Assembly (NCBI GenBank): GCA_026026165.1
Contig: JAPEUD010000012.1
Coordinates: 186,001-250,000, forward strand
DNA: 64,000 nucleotides
Reading direction: 5' to 3'
DNA from: Sarea resinae
Lineage: Eukaryota
Shown: in pieces, positions 3,595-63,188 of the stretch
Layout of the letters: each line of letters opens with the position of its first letter
How positions within the stretch are numbered: the first letter of the stretch is position 1
Position numbers and translations under genes: made by a program
Notes under the pieces: generated by a model
What the model was told of the DNA's origin: nothing
Database searches by the model: none
The model's input: only the letters and a program-made list of their open reading frames with translations

Positions 3595-4470
3595 ATGCCT
3601 CCTCGACTAACGTCCATCTCCCCTCTGCTACGGCAAGGAGAAATACAACCCATATGTCGCTCCCTCTTCTCCTCCACCGCCATTGCCCGGGCCGAAGGCG
3701 GCCCGCTGTCGAGTACGAATCCCCTCTCCCTCAATCCAGCACCCCGTCGAGGCATCAAAAGTCTCGAGCCGCAGCTAATTGGCCATGCAGGCATATTCGG
3801 CTCAGCTCCCTCCTCCAACAAAAGCACAACAGCTACGCCTTCCGCGTCCTCGACGGATCCCTCCCTATCCCAACCCACCTCCAGAGACACCAACAGATAC
3901 GCCTTCGCCCAAGACCTAGTCAAATCCCGCCGTCGGAATAACACGCAAGAAGAAATCACTAAGTTCGCCCGCGCCCATGACATCGAGCGACAGCAGACGC
4001 GGCGCTGGAAACAAGGCGACGTGTATGCGCCGCGAGATATCGGACCCAATGAGATGCTGAAGTGGAGGCGCCGGACAAAACCAAGCATGGATGCGTTCGA
4101 TATCTTGGCTATCAACCCGTTGCATCAGTATAAAGTATTTTCTCTCTCCTCTTCGCCCTCTGCACTCTCTTTCGCGCCGCCCCCCCCCCTCATTCCCCTC
4201 TTCAATTTTCAAGCCAAGCCAATGCCCGGATCTGAAACCCCAACTAACAATATTGAAACCCCCCAGAATTTCGCCATAATGTCCGAATACATGACATCAA
4301 TGGGCCGCATAAAGGGAGCCAAGGACACCGGTCTGCGTCCCGTGAATCAGCGTCGCGTGGCCAAAGCCATCCGCCGATCCATCGGCATGGGCCTCATGCC
4401 CAGCGTCCATCGCCATCCCGAGATTCTGGAAGCCGAAGCTCGGGAGAGGGGTATCAGACGGTCATTCTAA
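3595..4470 (+). CDS. RSM18: Mitochondrial ribosomal protein bS18m (Rsm18); exons 3595-4134, 4267-4470
   Basis: Motifs W..GDVYAP.D, INPL..YK/NF.IMSEYMTSMGRIK...TGLRPVNQRRVAKAIRRSIGMGLMP match the S18 family. Intron 4135-4266 is GTATTT..ACTAAC..CAG. ATG 3595 begins a presequence-like peptide. Confidence 0.9.
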   Translation: MPPRLTSISPLLRQGEIQPICRSLFSSTAIARAEGGPLSSTNPLSLNPAPRRGIKSLEPQLIGHAGIFGSAPSSNKSTTATPSASSTDPSLSQPTSRDTNRYAFAQDLVKSRRRNNTQEEITKFARAHDIERQQTRRWKQGDVYAPRDIGPNEMLKWRRRTKPSMDAFDILAINPLHQYKVFSLSSSPSALSFAPPPPLIPLFNFQAKPMPGSETPTNNIETPQNFAIMSEYMTSMGRIKGAKDTGLRPVNQRRVAKAIRRSIGMGLMPSVHRHPEILEAEARERGIRRSF

Positions 4471-4840: not shown

Positions 4841-5734
4841 ATGAATCTCAAACATCCCCCCTTTCCCTCCCTCCCTCCCTCCCTAAGAAAAATTACTCAA
4901 CAATAGCAAGCTTTCCTATAAAAAAAAAGAGTATAGTATTCCCGAAATAATCATCATCTAAAACGAATTACTGAATATCTAACCAGTCTGCTAAACATAA
5001 AAGTTTTGTGTTTTTCTCGTTTTCTGCTCTTTTTTTTGGTGGGGTTCATCTCAAAATGAAAGGAAAAGAGGGAGAAATGAGGAGGGGAAAAAAAATTTGG
5101 AGAGAGGGAGAGGGGAAAGGAGGAGAAAAGTCTCTTATTGCCGCATTCGCATCCACTGTCATCATTGCCCATTGCCCATCGCCCATCGCTCATCAAGTCT
5201 TCAAATCCTCCAATCATCAATCCATCATCGTCCCGAAACCCCAGATCCACCAGTTCACCCAAAAAGGCGCCCTTGGTGGAAGGGAGATCGCAGGCACCGC
5301 CAGAACGGCTAAGAAAAAAGTCAGAGGACAGAGAGTGTCAACCTTGGTTTTTTGCTGAATGTTAAGGTGAGTCCTCTGTTTATCTGGATTTTATCGCTGT
5401 GATGGCGGTGGCCGTGGGGTCGATGGTGGTGATGGTGGTGGGGGTTAGATCTCTGTTGTGCAGTATAGAGGATTAGTGCTATTGGGGTGGACTAGGGGAA
5501 AGATAAGCTGAGCTAAACTACGCACGTGAATAGGAAATAGGGAATAGGAATTTGAGAAAAAGAAGGGTGGGTTGTTGCAAGAGAGACTTCATATGAAGAG
5601 AGAGAGAGAGGGAGAAAGAGAAAAGGAAAATGGGCAGGATAGACCCATTTATTCCTTCACCATAAAAGAATGCAAGCAATCGAGGGGGAGAGTCAGTAAG
5701 AGGAAGAGTAAATGTATGTTTCCTCGGTCCAGCC

Positions 5735-7005
5735 CTAGGAGCAGAAGGAGAAGGAGGAAGAAGAAGCAGAAGAGAGGGGAGGACGTGTAGGTATGGACGC
5801 GAAAGCGAGGCTGGAGACGGAAACGGAGGATGTGGCAGTAAGGGTACCAATCGTGTTCAACATGGCCCGAATCGGAGTCTCGGAAAGGGGGGCCGGTGGA
5901 GGTGAAGAGTAAGAAGAAGCAAAATTATTGGACATGGTGTCATTGGAGAGGGGCGCCATCGCCATGACCAGCGATGCTTTAACCGCCCAATGCAATTAGC
6001 GGTGTTTCTCCTTGATCGACGAGCTCCCTCCATAATCTCGTTCAAGAGATACGGGACTTACCAGCAAGACAGTACGAGGTCCCCACCCACAGATTGCTGC
6101 AATCGGCATTGACCGCCGGATTCATGGTCCGAAATCCGCTCAGAGTCAGATTTCCCAGGCTCAGCGCCTTCTGGCATGCATTTGTGTCGGCGGCCGGGAC
6201 GGTGTACCAGCGGCTGCAGTTCGGGAGGCTGCCGGCGGGGAAGGTGAGGGCATAGGGAGGAAGGTAGTCTACCAACCAGGAGTCGGTTTTGCTGAGGTGA
6301 AGAAAAGGGATGTGAATCGACCAAGGGGCTCGCAGATTCTTAACAGGAAGCAAAGTGACAGCGAAAGCGAAGAGTAGAAAGATGAGAAAGGCACAACAAG
6401 AGAGCAGCACGAAGGAGATCTTTGAAGCTTATCGAAGGGTCGAGTACTTACCAACCTCACGCTTGGCCTGCTTTATACAGCGCCCAGCCAGGTCACGTTT
6501 GCCTGTGGAAAACGTTAGCAGAAAGCTTCCATCATAGAAAGTAAAGACTTACACTCAAAGTCAGGATCAGAGTTGTCAACCTCATCGGTGTTGAGGCAAC
6601 GGCCATTCAAGTCACGAGTGCCTAAAAGGTCAATCAAGAAACGTAATTACCCATGAGTGTTCGAATCACTCCAATATAAGTTAATAAAAATGGAAAAAGC
6701 GGTGCTTACACTCCTTGAGGCAACGACCTTGCATGTCACGAGTGCCTTTCAAGAGGTCAGCAAAAAAGGTCGAAACACGGGAAAGGAGAACACGCTTACA
6801 CTGGATGGCCGGGTCAGGGGCTAGGGCGTCAAGCTTCCACTGGCAAAGCCTATGCGTGGAATTAAGGGTGCCTGCAGAATTTAGTAAGGTCGAGAAAGGT
6901 CATGTCGGAGTTGGACTGACAATTAGCGTGGACCGGACTGGCCATCACGTTGACGGCGAGATTCATGCACATGAGTGCGAGAATGCTCATAGTGATTGAC
7001 TTCAT
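5735..7005 (-). CDS. Secreted Cys-repeat + LysM-domain protein (~253 aa); exons 7005-6921, 6871-6800, 6745-6710, 6621-6553, 6502-6452, 6268-6062, 5976-5735; 3' end uncertain
   Basis: Signal peptide MKSITMSILALMCMNLAVNVMA-SPV. Six GT..AG introns (donors GTCAGT, GTAAGC x2, GTAAGT x3) give one open frame: CTLNSTHRLC, CTRDMQGRC, CTRDLNGRC, CKRDLAGRC, then KREV. This is followed by a fungal-type LysM (CSRWYTV....C..A....L....FRTMNPAVNADCSNLWVGTSYCL) and a Ser/Thr-rich tail. Confidence 0.8.
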
Positions 7006-8288
7006 CCTAAAGGGCCTTGGATCTAATATGAGAGCAAGGAAGGTTAGCCAGGTGCGTAGAATAGCAAAGTATCTGAATGTGCATGAGATGAAGAGAAGGG
7101 GAAGAGAATGGGAAAGGGAGCAGCCATTAAGATATTATAAAAATCAAGGCATTTGCATGTGAATTAAAATCCATTTCGTTCCGTCAAGTGCAGACACATC
7201 GATCCGGAAGGCAAGCTCAAAGTCATCGCAAAAAGACAATCGAAGAGATAACCTACATGGCAGCGAATGCTGATACCAAAGGTGGTCAGATCAAGAACTG
7301 AGGTCTTGTCAGAGCAAGAATAAGTGAGAAATATCTCAATAGATTTCAAAGGTAGTCAAGAAGATTGACTGAGAATGAGAAAAGTCTTGGTGATTGTGAG
7401 TGAATCAATATGAAAGAAGAGGAGAGGTGCAGAAAGAAGATTTCATGAGCGTTCAAATAGCTCCGGGATCCACGCTAGAAAGGCATCTTGATTCACCGCT
7501 GTGAAGGTGTCCAAATCGGGTTGCATGATGCCGTGAATGGTAAGTGAAGACAAAGAACTCTGAGAGGAGAGTTGAGCAGAAGACCGAGATTGCCATTGGG
7601 TAGTACGATAAGGGTCTCAAAAAATGAATGTCGATGTCGCAAAACTATTCACACCCTCATCAGATCCAGGCACCTGGGTTTATATCCTCAAAAACCATAT
7701 CTGAAGGCTTTGTGTGTGTGGATAAAGATGAAGGCAGGAATATTTCAAGGGGGATTAAGTCGAAAGGAGAAGGGAATACGAAGATAATCGGCATTACAAC
7801 AATACAATTCATCAGAGAAATCATTCATCAAAGTCCTAGATGAAATTGAGATATCTCAATGAGGACATATCATATCATAGTCTCATTCTAATCGTTCTAG
7901 CTCGTTTTAAAAAACAATGAAAGGAAAGTGCTTGTGTAGCTGTCAATGTTTTACAAACATATGTACGTATGATGTGCTGTAAGTCCTTTGAATATGATCC
8001 TTTTGCTGATATAGTAGATGATGGACCGAGAAAAGGGCAGCAGGCTTCAATAAGATCAGAGATGAGAGGAGCCGGAAAACTCCGCGCTTCCCAAAAGATG
8101 TATGGCGGTAGTGCCATGCTCGATATAAGACTTGATGGGGAAAAAAACGCGCCCTGCGCCTCTACACACCGGCCGCTGATGCGTTGAAGATACCCATCTA
8201 ATATGAGAGTAAAAAAGATTCGTGTAGCTCGTATTATCCGTATGATGCATTCCCGTTCGGCGTACCGTACGCCCTAAATATTTTGGCG

Positions 8289-11200
8289 CTAAGTTCTGTC
8301 GTGCTTACGATTGAAGTCGGTGAAGGACTCGTCCTCAACACTTCCGCTAGCAAGAGCCATGTGGGGATCTCCGCTAGGAGACTTAGCCAACTCAGTCCCT
8401 CCGTCATCATCGACTCCCTTGCCGGGATCGACGATCACGCTCGATCCGATCGGCGCAGTTCTCACTCTGGTGCTAAGCGGTAGCTGATATCTCAGTACAC
8501 CGCGAACAATCAGCTCGAAGGGATGCTGGACGATCTTTTCCCATCGTTCGGTGCCGCCAGCTTCGGTCTTGTTCCCGGGTGCTGCAAGACGAACTTCTCC
8601 AATGGAGGAAGAAAAGTGGTGCTTGAAAGGTGATCCGTCAAATAGCAAAGCAGAGTCGAATTCAAAAATCCTGCCCAGAAGCATTGTCTGAGAATCACCT
8701 CCAGGGTCAGGCATCGGATCAGTGTTGTCATCGTCCATGGTATGGTAATGGTTGCCACCATCCATCAGCGAGGGTGGCTCAGACTGTAAACCCCTGAGTC
8801 GAGGATTTTTGCGATTCGGCCTTGCAAGCGTGGCGGGAGGTCTAGTAGTATGATGATGGTCAGAACCAACATACTTGCTCTTGGCGAATACATTGACGTC
8901 CATATCTCCCACCGAGATCGCGACAACGTTTGGATTGACTGCTTTCACCAGTAGATCGAGCATGATTTCCTGTTCACTGGCAAGGACGTTTTGTATCTCT
9001 TGAACGCGGACATGTAGAAGAGGCTTGGTCGTCGCAAAGAGGAAACCCACCGCCCCTGAGATGACTAGGATGACCATAACGGTAAGAACAATACAGCCGG
9101 CAAGCCGGGTTGCCCATCCACGGTGACGCTCGTTATAGTAGTCCATCTGCCTGACGCTTGCACTGTTAGGTCTCCTTCCGCTGCGTGAACGAGTGACCCG
9201 CATAGAGCCAACCAACGGAGTGCGTTCATCATCGGCGCCCTCGCCATCAATATCGTAAGTGAGTACCTCGCCAGCCTTTTTCCCGTTACCAACACCAGCC
9301 AGGCGAAGTGCATGAGGATTCCGGGGACTAGAGGGTCGGGAAGACTGCCTAATGAGACTGCTAGCATTTGAGCGAAGGGGCTTCGACGGGGGTTGAAAGG
9401 GAGAATCGTTATCAAAGAGCGAGGTGTGTCCTCCTCCGCCACGGCCAAATCGTCCTATATGGTGGTGACGGTGAGTTGAGTTTCCTGGAGCCCCTCGGCC
9501 GCTGCCTGTACGGCCATCTCTGGCAGCATCTCCGCGCTCGCCACCTTCACCCTCATGGCCACTGTTATATGGATTATGAGCGAACTTCATGCTTCGCTTT
9601 GCCACCACACTATGATTGCCATCTGCTAAACCTTGTAGAGCTCTCACACCACCTCGGTGGTCTATTAAGCTTTGTACAGACGTAGCACTGGGTGTCCTAG
9701 AATGATATCTTGCCGCTCGAGGGGGATGTGGATCGGGAGGATTAGACTCGTAAACAAAGGTCTCTTCTGAATCCGAAGAGTTCGCCTCGTCGACCGCGCT
9801 GGCCACCTTTGCTTCGAATATGTCTGCCTTCGAAGATGCTGCGGCCGAAATCTAGTCAGTCCCATTTCCCAAATCCTGCGTTCGGAACCTGACAAGGATG
9901 CCGCTCTCCCATCAAAATTTGACGGTAGGTATTGAAATTCGCGAAAAGATGAACCATCTAGACAGAAGGTCTATAGGATAGGTTCAGAGACGAAGGAAAA
10001 AGGAGGACAGATATGCGGGAGCAGAATGAGCGATAAAGATGTCGGACTTACCGGTTCCAGAATTGATCGATGGTGCCTTTCGTACGATTCGCTTCTTCTC
10101 TTTTTTTGGCCTGATTGTTTCCACGCTGGGCTTCATGCGAATGCTTCCATTGGTATCCGCCCGTCCTGACGATCCGCGTTCCCCGGCACCACCTCCCAAG
10201 GCTACCTGGGGAATCGAACTGACCGTCTCCGTCTCCACCGTCATGTTCTTGGCTAATCCTTCGGCCCCAGCTTTTCCTCGTAGAGTATTAAGCTTCGTAT
10301 ATGATCGTTGAGGGGGAAGAGTGTTGGGTCTAGAAGAGCTCTTTTCGGAATCACTTTTCTTTCGGCTCTTGTCGTCGCTCTTATTGCCGCCACTTTCGCT
10401 CTCGCTACCCTTCGTGCTCTTCACGGAGTCTTCCATCGAGCTCTCGGCAACCTTATCTGTTCGATCATCAGACGATTCTCTGTTCTCGTTTGGTCCTCGT
10501 GCTGTCTCCAGCGCCGGTGTGGCTGGTAGACTGCTTTCCTGCACTGTCTCAAGCATCGGGCCATTCCCGCTGGCTCCTCTTGCCGGCGTTCGCATACCAG
10601 TGGTCGTCGCATGCTCTTCCGGTTCGGGATCCGTCGTACTTCCATCGAACCCAGCTCGGGGAGCTGTTGGGGGAGGGGTAGACCGCTGTAGGAAAATGTT
10701 TGGACTTGCAGACTGAGACTCTGCTTTCCGCGGGGAAAGTATCGAAGGGCGTATGGACGAAGAAGCCGGCGGCGGAGACTTAAGTCTCGGTGAGACCGGC
10801 CAACGAGGCGTGTTGTCTCCAGATGAACTGGCGCTCGCTTTCCGCGGTCGTGGGGCTTTGATTTGTGGTTCGGATAGCACGGTAGGCTGCATCTGTGGTA
10901 TGTTCGCGGAAGCCAAAGCTCGCTGCACCGCTGCAGCAGAAGGGACGGAAGGGGCGCTGACTCCCGATGCACTTGGGGTTCGACTTGGACTGAAGTCCTG
11001 GCTATTCTTTCTCGACCGCGTGGGTTTGGAAGCTGAGTAGGTCCCGGATCTTAACGATGGCCGAATCGGAGAGCTCTCGCGAGAAGGTTTCGGGGAGCTT
11101 GCAGCAGATGAATGCACTGAGGCTAAGTTCGAAGGACGAGTCACAGCAGCGCGAGATGAAGACTGTGAACGCCGATCGATCTTGCTGGGCCTTTCTGCAT

Positions 11201-11291
11201 CAGAGCCACTGCCATCGTGGCCAACCCCTGGCTCCGAAGTCTCGGGTTGCCCACTCATTGCCTGGTAGGGCGTCTCCTTGGCGGAAGCCAT
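8289..11291 (-). CDS. VAC7: Vacuolar segregation protein Vac7 (Fab1 regulator); exons 11291-10052, 9838-8289
   Basis: Motifs MTVETETVSSIP, ASSKADIFEAKVASAVDEANSSDSEETFVYESNP, one TM helix, then IQNVLASEQEIMLDL...NPN and PFELIVRGVLRYQLP. Intron 10051-9839 is GTAAGT..CTGAC..CAG. Start taken as the first in-frame ATG. Confidence 0.85.
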
Positions 11292-13254
11292 CACGGTGGA
11301 TTCGAGCCTGCAAGCGTGGGCCACGGGCTTTGGTCGAATGGTATCTTCATGGGGTGATGCTATTCCTTGAGATGTCGGGGAGGAATGCGTGGCTCCAAAG
11401 AACGCCTGAGCTGAAGCACGTCCAGACAAGCAAGGTTACGGTGACGATTGATCGCGTAGGAGAGTATCGTGACTTGCAAGAACAAGAAGGTAAAGTCCAT
11501 GCATCCGAGGAGGATCTTCGTCACCGCTGGAAAGTACCACGTTGCCGCGCTGCAGCCGACGGCGGTAGAAGTATCCTAGACCTCTAGCTACAGCTGTGTA
11601 AGGGAAGAGGTACTGGTTCGGAGTACCTCAGGTGGTACCTTAGGTATCACTCCGTTATTCTATTGATGCTTACCTTACCTCCTAGCGACTGCATTACCAT
11701 TTGTATTGAAGACTACCTAGTGGGAAATTTTCCTATCTAAGGCACCTGATGTATGTGGTGGCAGGCGCCCACTGAACGGCCACAATCACCTTTGTGGTAG
11801 AAGGTTTGGCATTGTCCGCCGGCCCGGCTGATGAAGATGATGAAGATGATGATGATGATGGAGTAAGGCATTGCGTAGGTACCTAGGTACTTCTCCGTGC
11901 CATCTGGCTACCTACTAGAAACCTAGATACTTTGCCTGAGGTTCAGATTCGGTGCATCATCTTCAGATTCGGTACCTCGAGTGCGCAGGAATAGCTGACG
12001 ATACTAAGTTCTACTTCTGTCGACTTCCGCTTTCGATTTCATGGTAGGTAGGTAAGACTACTCATAGTACGCTGTAGGTAGGTAGCGATCAACCCATAGG
12101 TAAATCTGTCAGCTTCCGGTTGGCGAAGAGGGGGGCCGAGGCCGAACCTACCTGAGGTGGGCTCGCCACGATTCGAGTTGAGTCAAACGACAATAACAGT
12201 AATTCTTTTTTTCGGTGCATGTGGCGGTTCCTTATTTGACGAGATGTTACAGATCGTGGCTGCAGCATGCTCAGATGACCGATACTGGACCATCAGCTAC
12301 TACCTTATGAGCTTTGATTCAGCATCCATTAACGAGGTTCATGATGAGGTACAGCGTAGGTTCTCGGACTTGACTACCTGATAAGATTGCGGGAAACTTA
12401 CTCCTTGGGAGCTAGAACGAGAGGCGCAAATGACATAGTACGGAGCATTAGTCTATCAGATAAAACCTACGAACTGGATCTCAGACGTCGGAAAGCCACA
12501 TAGTGACATAGATGATAACCACCAGGCATGGAACGTGGCCATATCGCCTGGAATGTACAATTTCAATTCAAGGACCACTCGATCTCTGCTTTGTGCATGC
12601 GAAAAGCCGAATCGTACGCAATAAAGTTCCCAGGGCCAACCCCTACAACAGGGTAAGGAGTGGTTCACTGGTTGCGTGGTTCCGCTATCTGCAGGATTCC
12701 AGATCAAATATTCTAATCTCAAATTCACAATTCCCGTGTTCCGATATTGAGACATCAAGTCATCAAGTTCTTCAAAGGCAAAGATGGGAAGATTATTCTC
12801 CTCCCCGATATTACTGCGTTTTCCCGTCCGCCGTCCGCTACGCAGTAAGTTTCGGTAACGATTTGGGCAAGAACAATAATCACGCGGTTTGAACATCTCA
12901 GACGAAATTCCGGCCAAGGCAAGGATCCATAAAAAATTTCAAATTTGGGTTGTCTTCAAGTAGGTACATGAGAGAGGTAGCTTTACGACCAAGAAGTTTG
13001 CCCCTGAGTAAGATGAGCTTGTTTCTCGGCGAGGACGGTTCTAAGACACGGTAGCTAAGATAGCCGGAAGGCCAGGGACTATGCGAAGGTGTGGGTGTCG
13101 TAATCATCATTTAATCTCCCAATGATGCTCCGCAGCATGGAAAAGCGATTGTTTTCTGTTTTGGTTTTACCCGTTCGGGCATTCGCGTAATGGGAGGAAC
13201 AACAAACACACGGGCGGCGCTGTGAGCAGACTCAAAAAGGTGGCGACTGATGAT

Positions 13255-19729: not shown

Positions 19730-21780
19730 ATGTCTCTCACCCAAGGTCTGTCCACGATGCTCATAACAATGCTCCCAGCAGGAGCAGCCAGAGCTCATCG
19801 CTGATGTTTGCAGATGCCATTTGGGCGGCGTCTCCCACCACGACACGCGGTCAGCCCACGCCTCTATCTGCAGATCCAAAAGGTGAACGGATAGCTTACG
19901 CCGTAAGTCTGCACTTAACCGGCCCGTGGCGTGCCAGATGAATGACTAATTCCATCGTTCCAATCTGCAGTCAAACAAATCCATCTTCCTCCGCTCCATT
20001 GACGAGCCCTCGATCAGCAAGCAATACACGGCTCATACCACACAAACTACAGTCGCCCGCTTCTCGCCTTCCGGATTCTACGTCGCTAGCGGAGATGTGG
20101 CGGGCACGGTGAGGGTATGGGACTGCGCTGGAGAAGGTGCCACGAAAGGTCTGTGAACTTCTTTCTGGTCGGCTACTTTTGTGAGCTATGCGCTGATATC
20201 CTGATTGATCGTATATAGGAGAATATAGCATCATCAGTGGCCGGATCAATGATATAGCTTGGGACGGTGACTCTCAACGAATCATTGCTGTTGGTCATGG
20301 TAAAGAGCGTTTTGGTCACTGTATCACGGCGGACAGCGGCAACTCGGTCGGAGAGATATCTGGTCATAGCGCGCAGATCAATTGTGTGTCAATAAGACAG
20401 CAGAGACCTCTCCGAGCAGCGACCGGCAGTGATGATAGTAGTATGGTTTTCTATCATGGCGCACCTTTCAAGTTCAATACCAGTCAGCGAGGCCAGCATT
20501 CCAACTTCGTATACGGCTCCGCGTTCAGTCCGGACGGAAGCACCCTGGTGACCGTTGGCGCCGACCGGAAAATCTGGTTGTATGACGGTAAGACTGGAGA
20601 GAAGAAAATACAAATAGGCGAGGGAGAGCACAAGGGGAGCATATTCGGAGTGTCGTGGTCAAAAGACTCGAAACGATTCGTCACCTCGAGTGCAGACCAG
20701 ACTGTGAAGATATGGGATGCAGAAGCAGGGAAGACGGTGCAAAACTGGAGGTTTGGTGATGAAGGGGTGGTAAACATTCCTGATCACCAAGTAGGAGTTG
20801 TTTGGCCATCCAGGAGCGACGGTCTAGTGATTAGTCTCAACCTAGACGGAGACCTGAATTATCTGGCGGAAGGGAACCCGAAGCCCGTGAAGCTGGTTCA
20901 AGGACATCAGAAGAACATCACTGCAGTAGGATCTATTGATGCTGCAGACTCCAAATCCGAAACACTTTGGACTGGAAGCTACGAGGGCCGCATATGCAGC
21001 TGGGACGTTGCTACTGGCTGGGGAGAAAAGGCAGGTGGTGAGACACATACAAATCAAGTATCTGGGATTGCAACTTCTGCGCAGGGCCAAGGCAAGATAT
21101 ACAGCGTCGGCTGGGACGACAGGCTACGGTCTATAGATGGTGCTTCGAAAGCCTTCAGCAGCGCCGCCATAGGATTAGGAGGCCAGCCGAAAGGTGTTGC
21201 CGTCGCTGACAGCAATGGTCCGAAGACGCTCGTAGCAACCAATAACGGGGTGGAGATCTTCCACGAGGATCAAAAGATTGGCGAACTTCTTGCAAAATTC
21301 GAACCCACGTCTATTGCAGCAAGTGACAGCCTGGTTGCCGTTGGTGCAAACGACCACATTGTCCGAATATACAATCTCGCCACCAAAGTCCTCGAGCCGA
21401 AGACTGAACTCAAGCAATCCGTCTCCTGGATCAGTGCCCTTGCCTTCTCTCCCGACGGCTCTCTCCTTGCCGTCGGTGACAACTCGGGAAAGATTGTCGC
21501 TTACAAGACGTCTGATTTCAGTGTCGCTACTAATAGGTGGACATCACATACGGCCCGCGTCACAAGCATTGCGTGGAATAAGGAGGGGACGCATGCGGTC
21601 AGTGGAGGGTTGGATACGAATGTCTTTGTTTGGAGTGTGGGAACGCCTGGTAGTAGAATCAAGACGACGAATGCGCACAAGGATGGCGTGAACGGCGTCG
21701 CGTGGGTTGGTGCCGATAAAGTCGTGAGCGCTGGAGGGGATGCGGCGGTCAAGGTCTGGAAAGTCAAGGGGCTGAAGTAG
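19730..21780 (+). CDS. AIP1: Actin-interacting protein 1 (WD40 double propeller); exons 19730-19745, 19814-19902, 19971-20148, 20219-21780
   Basis: Motifs P.TTRGQPT.LS.DPKGERIAY, TTVARFSPSGFYVASGD, INDIAWDGDSQRI, PLRAATGSDD and HGAPFKF, with many WD repeats and three canonical introns. Confidence 0.92.
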
Positions 21781-62259: not shown

Positions 62260-63188
62260 ATGGCGAAAATGACTAGCAGGATCACGAAAAGTAGTAGTAG
62301 TCATAACGCTACCGCCTACGCATCCAACATGAGGCCCGTGGCTCGTCCCAACGTCCTTGCCAGCTGCTACGCCGTCGACGCTCGTTCTATGGCGTTGCAG
62401 GGCTTCCACTACTCCACTACCGGGGCTGGCGGTAAGTCTTCACTTTGCACCAAAAAGATTTACTGTCCGATTTCATCTCGAAGAAGGTCGACTGACGCAC
62501 GCATCGCTAGGGGCCGAGTGGTATTCCTGAGGTCAGCTCGGGTATACCTTCACCACCCGAAAGTCCCCCACTCGCCGCCTACGCCGCCAAGAATGAGCAC
62601 TCGATCTCGAGAGTAGGCAAGGCGCAGCGAATGGGGGCTGTGTACACCATTGCGGAAGAGTGTGAGAGACTTTTCTGCGAGACATTCAGAACCGTTTTCC
62701 TTGGTGAGAGGGCAACGGCTGAGGACTCGCTGGCGATGGGTGCGCAAACGACAATGGCTTCAGATGGCTATTTTGGCCGCTATGGACAAGTCCGGGAGTG
62801 GGTCGAGGTGTGGGACTATGTCGGCGGATCGAATTTCCGAGGGTTCGTTGCTGGCGACGCAGACGATAGGACGTTGATTGTGTTCTTTGACGATGCCGTG
62901 GTTGGAAAGGACCTCAAGCAAGGGTATGCCTTGAAAGTCTGGTCTGGTCTGTTTGGCCTGGGGCTAATTTTCTCTAGGCTTATGGCGCTCATCGAGCTCG
63001 CAAGTACCGCGTGGTTGATGTGTTCCAGCCTCGTCGTATGTCTGAGCCGTGGCGACCAGCCGGCCGAGCTGAAGAGCCTGATGAGGGATCTCGGATGGGT
63101 TGGATTTGAGCTCATCACGCTCGACCGATGGGCGCATGCAAGGGATGTGACGAGCGATCAATATCTGCTCCTGGGCATGGACGTCTGA
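62260..63188 (+). CDS. OAZ1: Ornithine decarboxylase antizyme, expressed by +1 ribosomal frameshift at TCC-TGA (62525-62530); introns 62432-62510 and 62924-62977; ~264 aa
   Basis: Spliced ORF1 (63 codons) ends GGG GCC GAG TGG TAT TCC TGA. The +1 frame from 62529 continues EVSSGIPSPPESPP...IAEECERLFCE...EVWDYVGG..FRGFV...DLKQGLMALIELA....C..LVVC......LMRDLGWVGF, which matches the fungal antizyme domain. Confidence 0.93.

What the first reader, a model, noticed from the sequence alone, without database searches (positions are those of the whole stretch)
5735..7005. Hidden secreted protein: exon-encoded CxRDxxGRC peptide repeats fused through a Kex2-like site to a LysM domain
Seen: splicing six canonical introns gives signal peptide + CTLNSTHRLC + CTRDMQGRC + CTRDLNGRC + CKRDLAGRC + IKQAKR|EV + LysM + S/T tail. 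The repeat exons are too short to appear in the ORF track. Exons 3 and 4 are near-identical at DNA level (gcactcgtgacatgcaaggtcgttgcctcaag vs gcactcgtgacttgaatggccgttgcctcaac). Established: fungal LysM effectors bind chitin, and KR is the Kex2 site used in repeat-peptide precursors (KEPs, fungal RiPP precursors). Inference: this may be a bipartite precursor that releases disulfide-looped C-x7-C peptides together with a chitin-binding LysM unit. I do not recognise this architecture. It sits as an apparent accessory gene between the housekeeping genes RSM18 and VAC7.
Basis: partly seen in the sequence, partly recalled or inferred. Interest (0 to 1): 0.8.

Follow-up and report, generated by a model that had tools for sequence, protein, structure and literature searches.

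The report
Orphan fungal cysteine-repeat LysM gene
A resin-dwelling fungus hides a small secreted-protein gene made of four short cysteine-loop repeats next to a chitin-binding module; both parts are real, but whether they are spliced into one protein is unproven.

Summary
Both parts are real; the joint between them is the weak point. On the minus strand, a signal-peptide-like exon is followed by four phase-1 mini-exons, each giving a Cys loop (three C-x-R-D-x-x-G-R-C, one divergent C-x8-C). At the conserved motif positions the copies differ only by synonymous changes. Exon 6 is a fungal four-cysteine LysM, with an atypical binding loop. Five introns look normal. 'Intron 5' (183 nt) has no recognised branch site before the in-frame acceptor; rival outcomes give a 111-aa repeats-only protein; and it hides an ATG-less, signal-peptide-like hydrophobic frame continuous with the LysM. 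Best reading (0.45): a young exon-shuffled chimera, cut once by Kex2 at A-K-R into an 8-Cys module and a LysM-plus-stalk. It is not a KEP or RiPP precursor: no dibasic sites separate the repeats, no Tyr, no DUF3328 gene on the contig. No homolog of the repeat was found, but the nearest sequenced relatives are distant (72-73% on a housekeeping protein). No RNA run was available. Verdict: new variant of secreted LysM proteins; moderate interest.

The parts
7135..7139 (-). TATA-like element about 134 nt before the ATG
   Evidence: consensus match only
6921..7005 (-). Exon 1: ATG and signal-peptide-like segment (about 22 aa), ends on first base of a Cys codon
   Evidence: 15-residue hydropathy 2.09 against median 1.99 in 69 signal-like LysM relatives; no SignalP available
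6800..6871 (-). Exon 2: divergent repeat 1 (C-x8-C) and 14-aa spacer
6710..6745 (-). Exon 3: repeat 2, C-x-R-D-x-x-G-R-C
6553..6621 (-). Exon 4: repeat 3 and acidic spacer
6452..6502 (-). Exon 5: repeat 4 (KR inside the loop, aa 89-90) and the A-K-R site (aa 100-102; KR at 6464-6459)
6269..6451 (-). 'Intron 5': perfect donor, 183 nt, no recognised branch site before 6269 or 6292; no ATG in any frame
6348..6419 (-). Signal-peptide-like hydrophobic run inside 'intron 5', in the LysM frame and stop-free down to the LysM
6062..6268 (-). Exon 6: fungal-specific four-Cys LysM with its short Pro-rich lead-in; C1-C2 loop two residues longer than usual
5735..5976 (-). Exon 7: 80-codon S/T/P-rich tail (47% S+T+P), stop at 5737-5735; no hydrophobic C-terminus
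   Evidence: openness alone is not significant (1009 of 5000 shuffles)
5648..5653 (-). Only AATAAA between 6431 and 5400, about 80 nt after the exon-7 stop
4264..4470 (+). Flank: last exon of RSM18 (ribosomal S18)
8289..11435 (-). Flank: VAC7

Best explanation
One transcription unit that arose by exon shuffling: a small secreted gene built from duplicated phase-1 Cys mini-exons has captured a formerly separate LysM gene, whose old leader now decays inside intron 5. Splicing 6451 to 6269 gives a 253-aa precursor. Inferred working: ER import; disulfides form (four loops in the repeat module, two in the LysM); Kex2 cuts once after A-K-R; an 80-aa, 8-Cys module of disulfide-closed turns is released or acts as a folded pro-domain, and the LysM with an O-glycosylated S/T stalk binds hyphal-wall chitin, shielding it or masking fragments in conifer tissue and resin. 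The exposed R-D-x-x-G-R turns most likely act as multivalent protein-binding or protease-decoy loops. Shown: exon anatomy, motif constraint, LysM fold, one good Kex2 motif. Inferred: splicing, processing, disulfide pattern, chitin binding and repeat function. Intron retention probably yields a repeats-only isoform as well.
For: Perfect donor after exon 5 and phase-1 TAG acceptor at 6269 exactly where LysM-family homology starts (alignments begin at query positions 1-12); a one-mismatch branch-like pentamer 14 nt before it, where CTGAC is the most enriched branch motif in this genome (19 seen against 5.3 expected). No ATG between exon 5 and the LysM, so an intact LysM can only be translated from upstream exons. 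LysM exon, its perfect donor, intron 6 (CTAAT branch) and the 80-codon tail are intact. One TATA-like site before exon 1 and one AATAAA after exon 7, none between. Tail composition (47% S/T/P) equals inter-LysM linkers of relatives (median 48%, 328 linkers). A-K-R matches the Kex2 sites of the genome's own alpha-pheromone precursor; 16 of 69 signal-bearing LysM relatives also have KR/RR before the first LysM. Hydrophobic stop-free frame in intron 5: 6 of 5000 shuffles, twice; 0 of 225 and 0 of 363 matched ATG-free genomic frames, 3 of 1095 when ATG is allowed.
Against: The branch-like pentamer before 6269 belongs to none of the four classes seen in 2022 Fusarium introns and is not enriched here (3 seen, 2.3 expected). 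Acceptor 6292 comes first, has the better pyrimidine tract and gives a stop (111 aa); acceptor 6339 is the first AG after the only recognised branch motif and puts the LysM out of frame. The relic-leader statistic was noticed post hoc, hydrophobic frames alone occur in 5 of 225 controls, and the run (2.99) is more hydrophobic than any of 69 real LysM leaders (maximum 2.83). The LysM lacks the usual G-D-x-C (374 of 618 relatives have it) and has a 13-residue C1-C2 spacing seen in 15 of 618, so chitin binding is uncertain. No homolog shows the fusion (0 of 150).
Confidence: 0.45

Rival explanations
1. Two things side by side: a functional repeats-only small secreted Cys protein of about 111 aa (intron 5 retained or spliced to 6292), and a downstream LysM gene that has lost its start and is decaying or is only a minor isoform.
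For: Retention and the 6292 acceptor both give 111 aa with an even 8 Cys in the mature part. No recognised branch site for the fusion. Leader-like frame without ATG in front of the LysM. The exon-5 donor may be an inherited copy of the repeat-exon donors. Atypical LysM binding loop.
Against: LysM exon, intron 6 and tail show no stop or frameshift while the leader looks decayed; no poly(A)-like signal after exon 5; a retained transcript would carry a long 3' UTR with a further intron, a likely decay target (established knowledge).
Confidence: 0.3
2. A KEP-like precursor, in which Kex2 also cuts after T-R, K-R or L-x-G-R inside each repeat and releases several short disulfide peptides with signalling or antimicrobial roles.
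For: Thr is among the tolerated P2 residues and LxxR is an expanded Kex2 motif (PMC8528282); R-D and G-R are invariant and every change at these positions is synonymous.
Against: P4 is Glu or Gln and P3 is Cys at the T-R/K-R sites, against the aliphatic P4 preference; cuts inside a loop leave pieces joined by the disulfide; spacers are 3-14 aa and unlike each other; motif words absent from the held supplements of both KEP surveys; the genome's alpha-pheromone is a different gene.
Confidence: 0.1
3. The fusion is made but stays whole: the LysM anchors a string of nine-residue disulfide loops to the wall, where they inhibit host or competitor serine proteases like canonical-loop inhibitors.
For: Loop size equals the nine-residue disulfide loop of Bowman-Birk inhibitors (PMC8410836); Cys-Thr-Arg fits P3-P2-P1 of such loops (recalled).
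Against: The P1' Ser and P3' cis-Pro of that loop (recalled) are absent; no PDB or Pfam match; a good A-K-R site lies between module and LysM.
Confidence: 0.08
4. The whole locus is a silent or decaying orphan.
For: Absent from the deposited protein set although neighbours are present; single copy.
Against: Synonymous-only change at motif positions, five good introns, intact frames. Mini-exon genes are routinely missed by annotation (established knowledge).
Confidence: 0.07

Closest known systems
Fungal-specific (four-Cys) LysM proteins such as Tal6, LdpA/LdpB (PMC4392113, PMC6399445)
   Same: Secreted, no catalytic domain, four Cys and N-P motif match the published pattern; beta-alpha-alpha-beta model closest to fern and horsetail chitinase LysMs (TM 0.77-0.78 on target, rmsd about 2 A); S/T-rich linker.
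   Different: Single LysM; binding loop two residues longer and without G-D-x-C; N-terminal 8-Cys repeat module in 0 of 150 top relatives (that list is biased to multi-LysM proteins).
Ustilago maydis Hum3 (PMC4617103)
   Same: Secreted repeat array followed by a folded Cys-bonded domain, with Kex2 motifs: the bipartite idea has precedent.
   Different: Hum3 has 17 amphipathic repeats of 31-36 aa, 14 separated by Kex2 motifs, and a hydrophobin; here four 9-10-aa Cys loops, no sites between repeats, and a LysM.
K2PP proteins (Kex2-processed pro-domain; PMC8528282)
   Same: N-terminal region ending in a dibasic site ahead of the mature domain.
   Different: Pro-domains there are typically disordered; this one is an 8-Cys repeat under motif constraint.
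KEPs, dikaritin RiPP precursors and alpha-pheromone precursors (PMC6339444, PMC7329392)
   Same: Signal peptide, short near-identical repeats, KR present; two-Cys repeats recall Pezizomycotina alpha-pheromones.
   Different: No Kex2 sites between repeats, no XA/XP spacer, no Tyr, no DUF3328 neighbour; the true pheromone gene is on C56.

Membership tests
Fungal-specific LysM | Four Cys and Asn at the published spacing | tested here: met
   Pattern from PMC4392113 matches P0001
Fungal-specific LysM | Beta-alpha-alpha-beta fold | tested here: met
   AF2 pLDDT 79.6, E20-22 H30-38 H42-48 E64-66; Foldseek top hits LysM, probability 0.99 but E 0.03-0.08; 1116 sequence hits at E<=0.001
Fungal-specific LysM | Usual G-D-x-C binding loop | tested here: not met
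   Asp-Thr kept but shifted, Gly missing, spacing 13 in 15 of 618 domains; loop Thr is critical in ChElp2
LysM effector-type protein | Signal peptide joined to the LysM in one protein | tested here: inconclusive
   Depends on intron 5
LysM effector-type protein | Chitin binding | not testable with these tools
   needs pull-down or ITC
KEP | Signal peptide | tested here: met
   hydropathy only
KEP | Internal repeats | tested here: met
KEP | Dibasic Kex2 sites between the repeats | tested here: not met
   Only KR at aa 89-90 (in a loop) and 101-102 (after the array)
Dikaritin RiPP precursor | Tyr in core and DUF3328 gene nearby | tested here: not met
   0 Tyr in aa 23-102; 14 UstYa matches, none on C24
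Alpha-pheromone precursor | C-x3-G-Q-x-C cores, each flanked by KR and XA/XP | tested here: not met
   Such a gene is on C56; this gene has none of it
K2PP protein | Kex2 motif after an N-terminal region | tested here: met
   Q-A-K-R at aa 99-102; cleavage itself not tested
K2PP protein | Disordered pro-domain removed in vivo | not testable with these tools
   8-Cys module suggests it is folded; spliced product could not be modelled
Bowman-Birk-type loop | Nine-residue disulfide loop | tested here: met
   size only, repeats 2-4
Bowman-Birk-type loop | Ser at P1' and Pro at P3' (recalled) | tested here: not met
   Asp at P1', no Pro in the loops

The most novel reading that the evidence does not exclude
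A young exon-shuffled precursor in which an undescribed family of exon-encoded nine-residue disulfide loops (C-x-R-D-x-x-G-R-C) is co-delivered with a variant LysM, the loops being bioactive on their own (protease-inhibiting or antimicrobial), with alternative use of intron 5 switching between a free repeat protein and a chitin-targeted form.
Probability: 0.18. Interest if true: 0.72.

Novelty: new variant of a known kind. Interest (0 to 1): 0.42.

Why it matters
If the splice is real, it is a snapshot of how fungi build new secreted proteins: duplicate a Cys mini-exon, then capture a LysM gene whose old leader is still legible in the intron. It would add an undescribed disulfide-loop repeat to the fungal secretome and shows a class of gene that annotation, and so KEP and effector surveys built on it, misses. 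If the splice is not real, what remains is an ordinary orphan small secreted Cys protein beside a decaying LysM gene.

Tried and rejected
Protein search with the LysM exon among proteins of 120-2000 aa: 0 of 38 candidates scored. Repeat profile among proteins of 96-2000 aa: 0 of 103 candidates at E<=10; proteins under 96 aa were not searched. ESM Atlas gave no answer. Repeat profile against PDB: 0 at E<=10; Pfam: only sub-threshold Myb and Anophelin. Metagenome scan for two intron-split repeats: 1 hit, L009, the antisense of a bacterial TPR repeat. Prokaryote scan for intronless tandem motif: 6 hits, all Arg-rich shadow-like frames in GC-rich DNA; viral scans 0 and 0. Own genome: acceptor-anchored motif 5 hits, 3 in this gene, L007 and L008 without splice signals; intronless motif 19 hits against 16 control, none convincing among the 17 of 19 whose context was printed; loose mini-exon pattern 76 against 61 control, no tandem cluster; DNA search single copy. 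KEP supplements: 0 occurrences in 3 and 4 held files; long files may have been cut and bioRxiv supplements are closed, so this is weak. Earlier findings: nothing in three look-ups. Rejected: alpha-pheromone, dikaritin, GPI anchor (C-terminus not hydrophobic), type I membrane protein by read-through of the intron-5 stop (would put a disulfide LysM in the cytosol), 24-33-nt micro-introns (below the 42-nt minimum). RSM18-VAC7 synteny could not be tested: no fungal genome collection is offered.

Full report
OBSERVATION. The region was read on the minus strand. An ATG at 7005 and six donor sites were found, and every downstream AG was listed with its frame. Introns 1-4 each split a Cys codon. This exon form occurs 5 times in 250 kb of the genome (window plus 19 stretches of C24), and 3 of the 5 are exons 2-4 of this gene. 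Over the first ten codons, all differences between exons 3, 4 and 5 at the R-D and G-R-C positions are synonymous, while the x positions change freely: the motif is under constraint. Repeat 1 is divergent (C-x8-C). The gene is single copy and lies between RSM18 and VAC7.

ORGANISM AND REACH OF THE SEARCHES. A neighbouring WD40 protein is 100% identical to a record labelled Sarea resinae; the next relatives (Pycnora, Xylona, Candelaria) are 71-73% identical (best 120 of 1684 listed). The genus lives on conifer resin and as an endophyte; pathogenicity is unresolved (PMC7961326, passages). This genome's proteins are in the collection, yet neither the LysM exon (>=120 aa) nor the repeat exons (>=96 aa) found themselves, so the gene seems unannotated. 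With no close relative on hand, the absence of repeat homologs says little about its true range.

THE LysM. Exon 6 matches the published fungal-specific pattern of four Cys plus Asn (PMC4392113, part 1 of 6, passages and section 10; match). It finds 1116 proteins at E<=0.001, the top 150 being mostly multi-LysM proteins at 28-45% identity. The model has beta-alpha-alpha-beta order (pLDDT 79.6) and its best structural matches are chitinase LysMs of fern and horsetail (probability 0.99, E 0.03-0.05; same by sequence, E 0.07). Pfam misses it, as that review predicts. Against a plain chitin-binding role: 526 of 618 domains in the hits have 11 residues between Cys1 and Cys2 and 374 have G-D-x-C; this one has 13 (15 of 618) and no Gly. 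The loop Thr, critical in ChElp2 (PMC9614474, passages), is present but shifted. None of the 150 hits carries the repeat.

THE JOINT. Introns 1-4 and 6 have branch motifs of the classes CTRAY, TTRAY or CTHAH that cover nearly all of 2022 Fusarium introns (PMC5677156, passages). Intron 5 has a perfect donor but none of these before acceptor 6269 (in frame) or 6292 (stop after six codons, 111 aa); its only recognised motif lies 44 nt before 6339, which is out of frame. Retention also gives 111 aa. For 6269: it sits where LysM-family homology begins and has a one-mismatch branch-like pentamer at 14 nt; that pentamer is not enriched in this genome (3 against 2.3). Both features together occur in 6 of 5000 dinucleotide shuffles and 6 of 5000 block shuffles, in 0 of 225 and 0 of 363 composition-matched ATG-free genomic frames and 3 of 1095 when ATG is allowed; hydrophobicity alone is not rare (5 of 225), and the test is post hoc. 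There is no ATG in the intron. I read this as the decayed leader of a once separate LysM gene. Since the LysM exon, intron 6 and the tail are intact, and there is one TATA-like site before exon 1 and one AATAAA after exon 7, a working chimera is slightly more likely than a dead neighbour. The tail is 47% S/T/P like LysM linkers (median 48%), but its openness is not significant (1009 of 5000).

PROCESSING. KEPs are defined by Kex2 sites between repeats (PMC6339444, passages; PMC7329392, part 1 of 8 and passages). Here the dibasic sites are aa 89-90, inside loop 4, and aa 101-102, after the array. Kex2 tolerates Thr at P2 and prefers aliphatic P4 (PMC8528282, part 1 of 3), so the T-R sites are possible but have Glu or Gln at P4 and Cys at P3. 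The A-K-R site has the same P3-P1 as the genome's own alpha-pheromone precursor on C56, a useful internal control. The module has no Tyr and none of 14 UstYa matches is on C24. So one cut is likely, a series of cuts is not, and RiPP cyclisation is unlikely.

MECHANISM. Most likely (0.45): secretion, disulfide formation, one Kex2 cut, an 8-Cys module plus a LysM-stalk that binds the wall, as LdpA/LdpB localise to wall and matrix (PMC6399445, passages). That D-x-x-G-R forms a hairpin turn is recalled knowledge, not tested; the spliced module could not be modelled. The loops equal Bowman-Birk loops in size (PMC8410836, passages) but lack their recalled Ser and Pro. Rivals: repeats-only protein plus decaying LysM (0.3), KEP-like release (0.1), uncut wall-tethered inhibitor (0.08), silent locus (0.07).

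COMPARISON AND NOVELTY. It works like a K2PP or Hum3-type precursor: Hum3 already joins Kex2-separated repeats to a hydrophobin (PMC4617103, passages). It is a member of the fungal LysM family by domain, not a KEP by definition. I found no report of this repeat or of a Kex2-cut repeat-LysM protein in searches (0 papers; listings only, plus passages of three papers), nor in the held KEP supplements; the library lacks most subscription papers and cut files may hide rows. Verdict: new variant of a known kind; orphan, one genome, key joint unproven; interest 0.42.

Noticed in passing
G000:C56:684603-684746 (L053): The genome's alpha-pheromone precursor: signal peptide, two two-Cys cores close to the Xylona motif given in PMC6339444, each followed by A-K-R and XA/XP spacers.
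   Followed up: partly
G000:C70:25300-40912; C38:2815-3266; C77:196889-197380: Cluster of UstYa/DUF3328 matches (11 of 14 on C70), a likely dikaritin RiPP cluster; precursor not looked for.
   Followed up: no
G000:C58:1-1550 (L002): Multi-LysM gene directly beside telomere repeats at the contig end, its 5' part apparently cut off.
   Followed up: no
G000:C27:19488-19601 and C67:269651-269776: Two further LysM (PF01476) matches, one above and one below the cut-off.
   Followed up: no
window 20209-21780 and protein P0245: An Aspergillus gene model for this WD40 protein also carries a ribosomal S18 domain, hinting that RSM18 and AIP1 are neighbours there, while VAC7 and a kinase gene lie between them here.
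   Followed up: no
window 62511-63188: ORF that looks like ornithine decarboxylase antizyme (recalled resemblance); such genes use a +1 frameshift.
   Followed up: no
window 6799-6746: Intron 2 is 54 nt, in frame and stop-free, and read-through restores a Cys at the donor, so its retention would give a longer in-frame isoform.
   Followed up: no
L009 46-2862: Bacterial TPR-repeat glycosyltransferase-like ORF whose antisense mimics the search pattern.
   Followed up: yes
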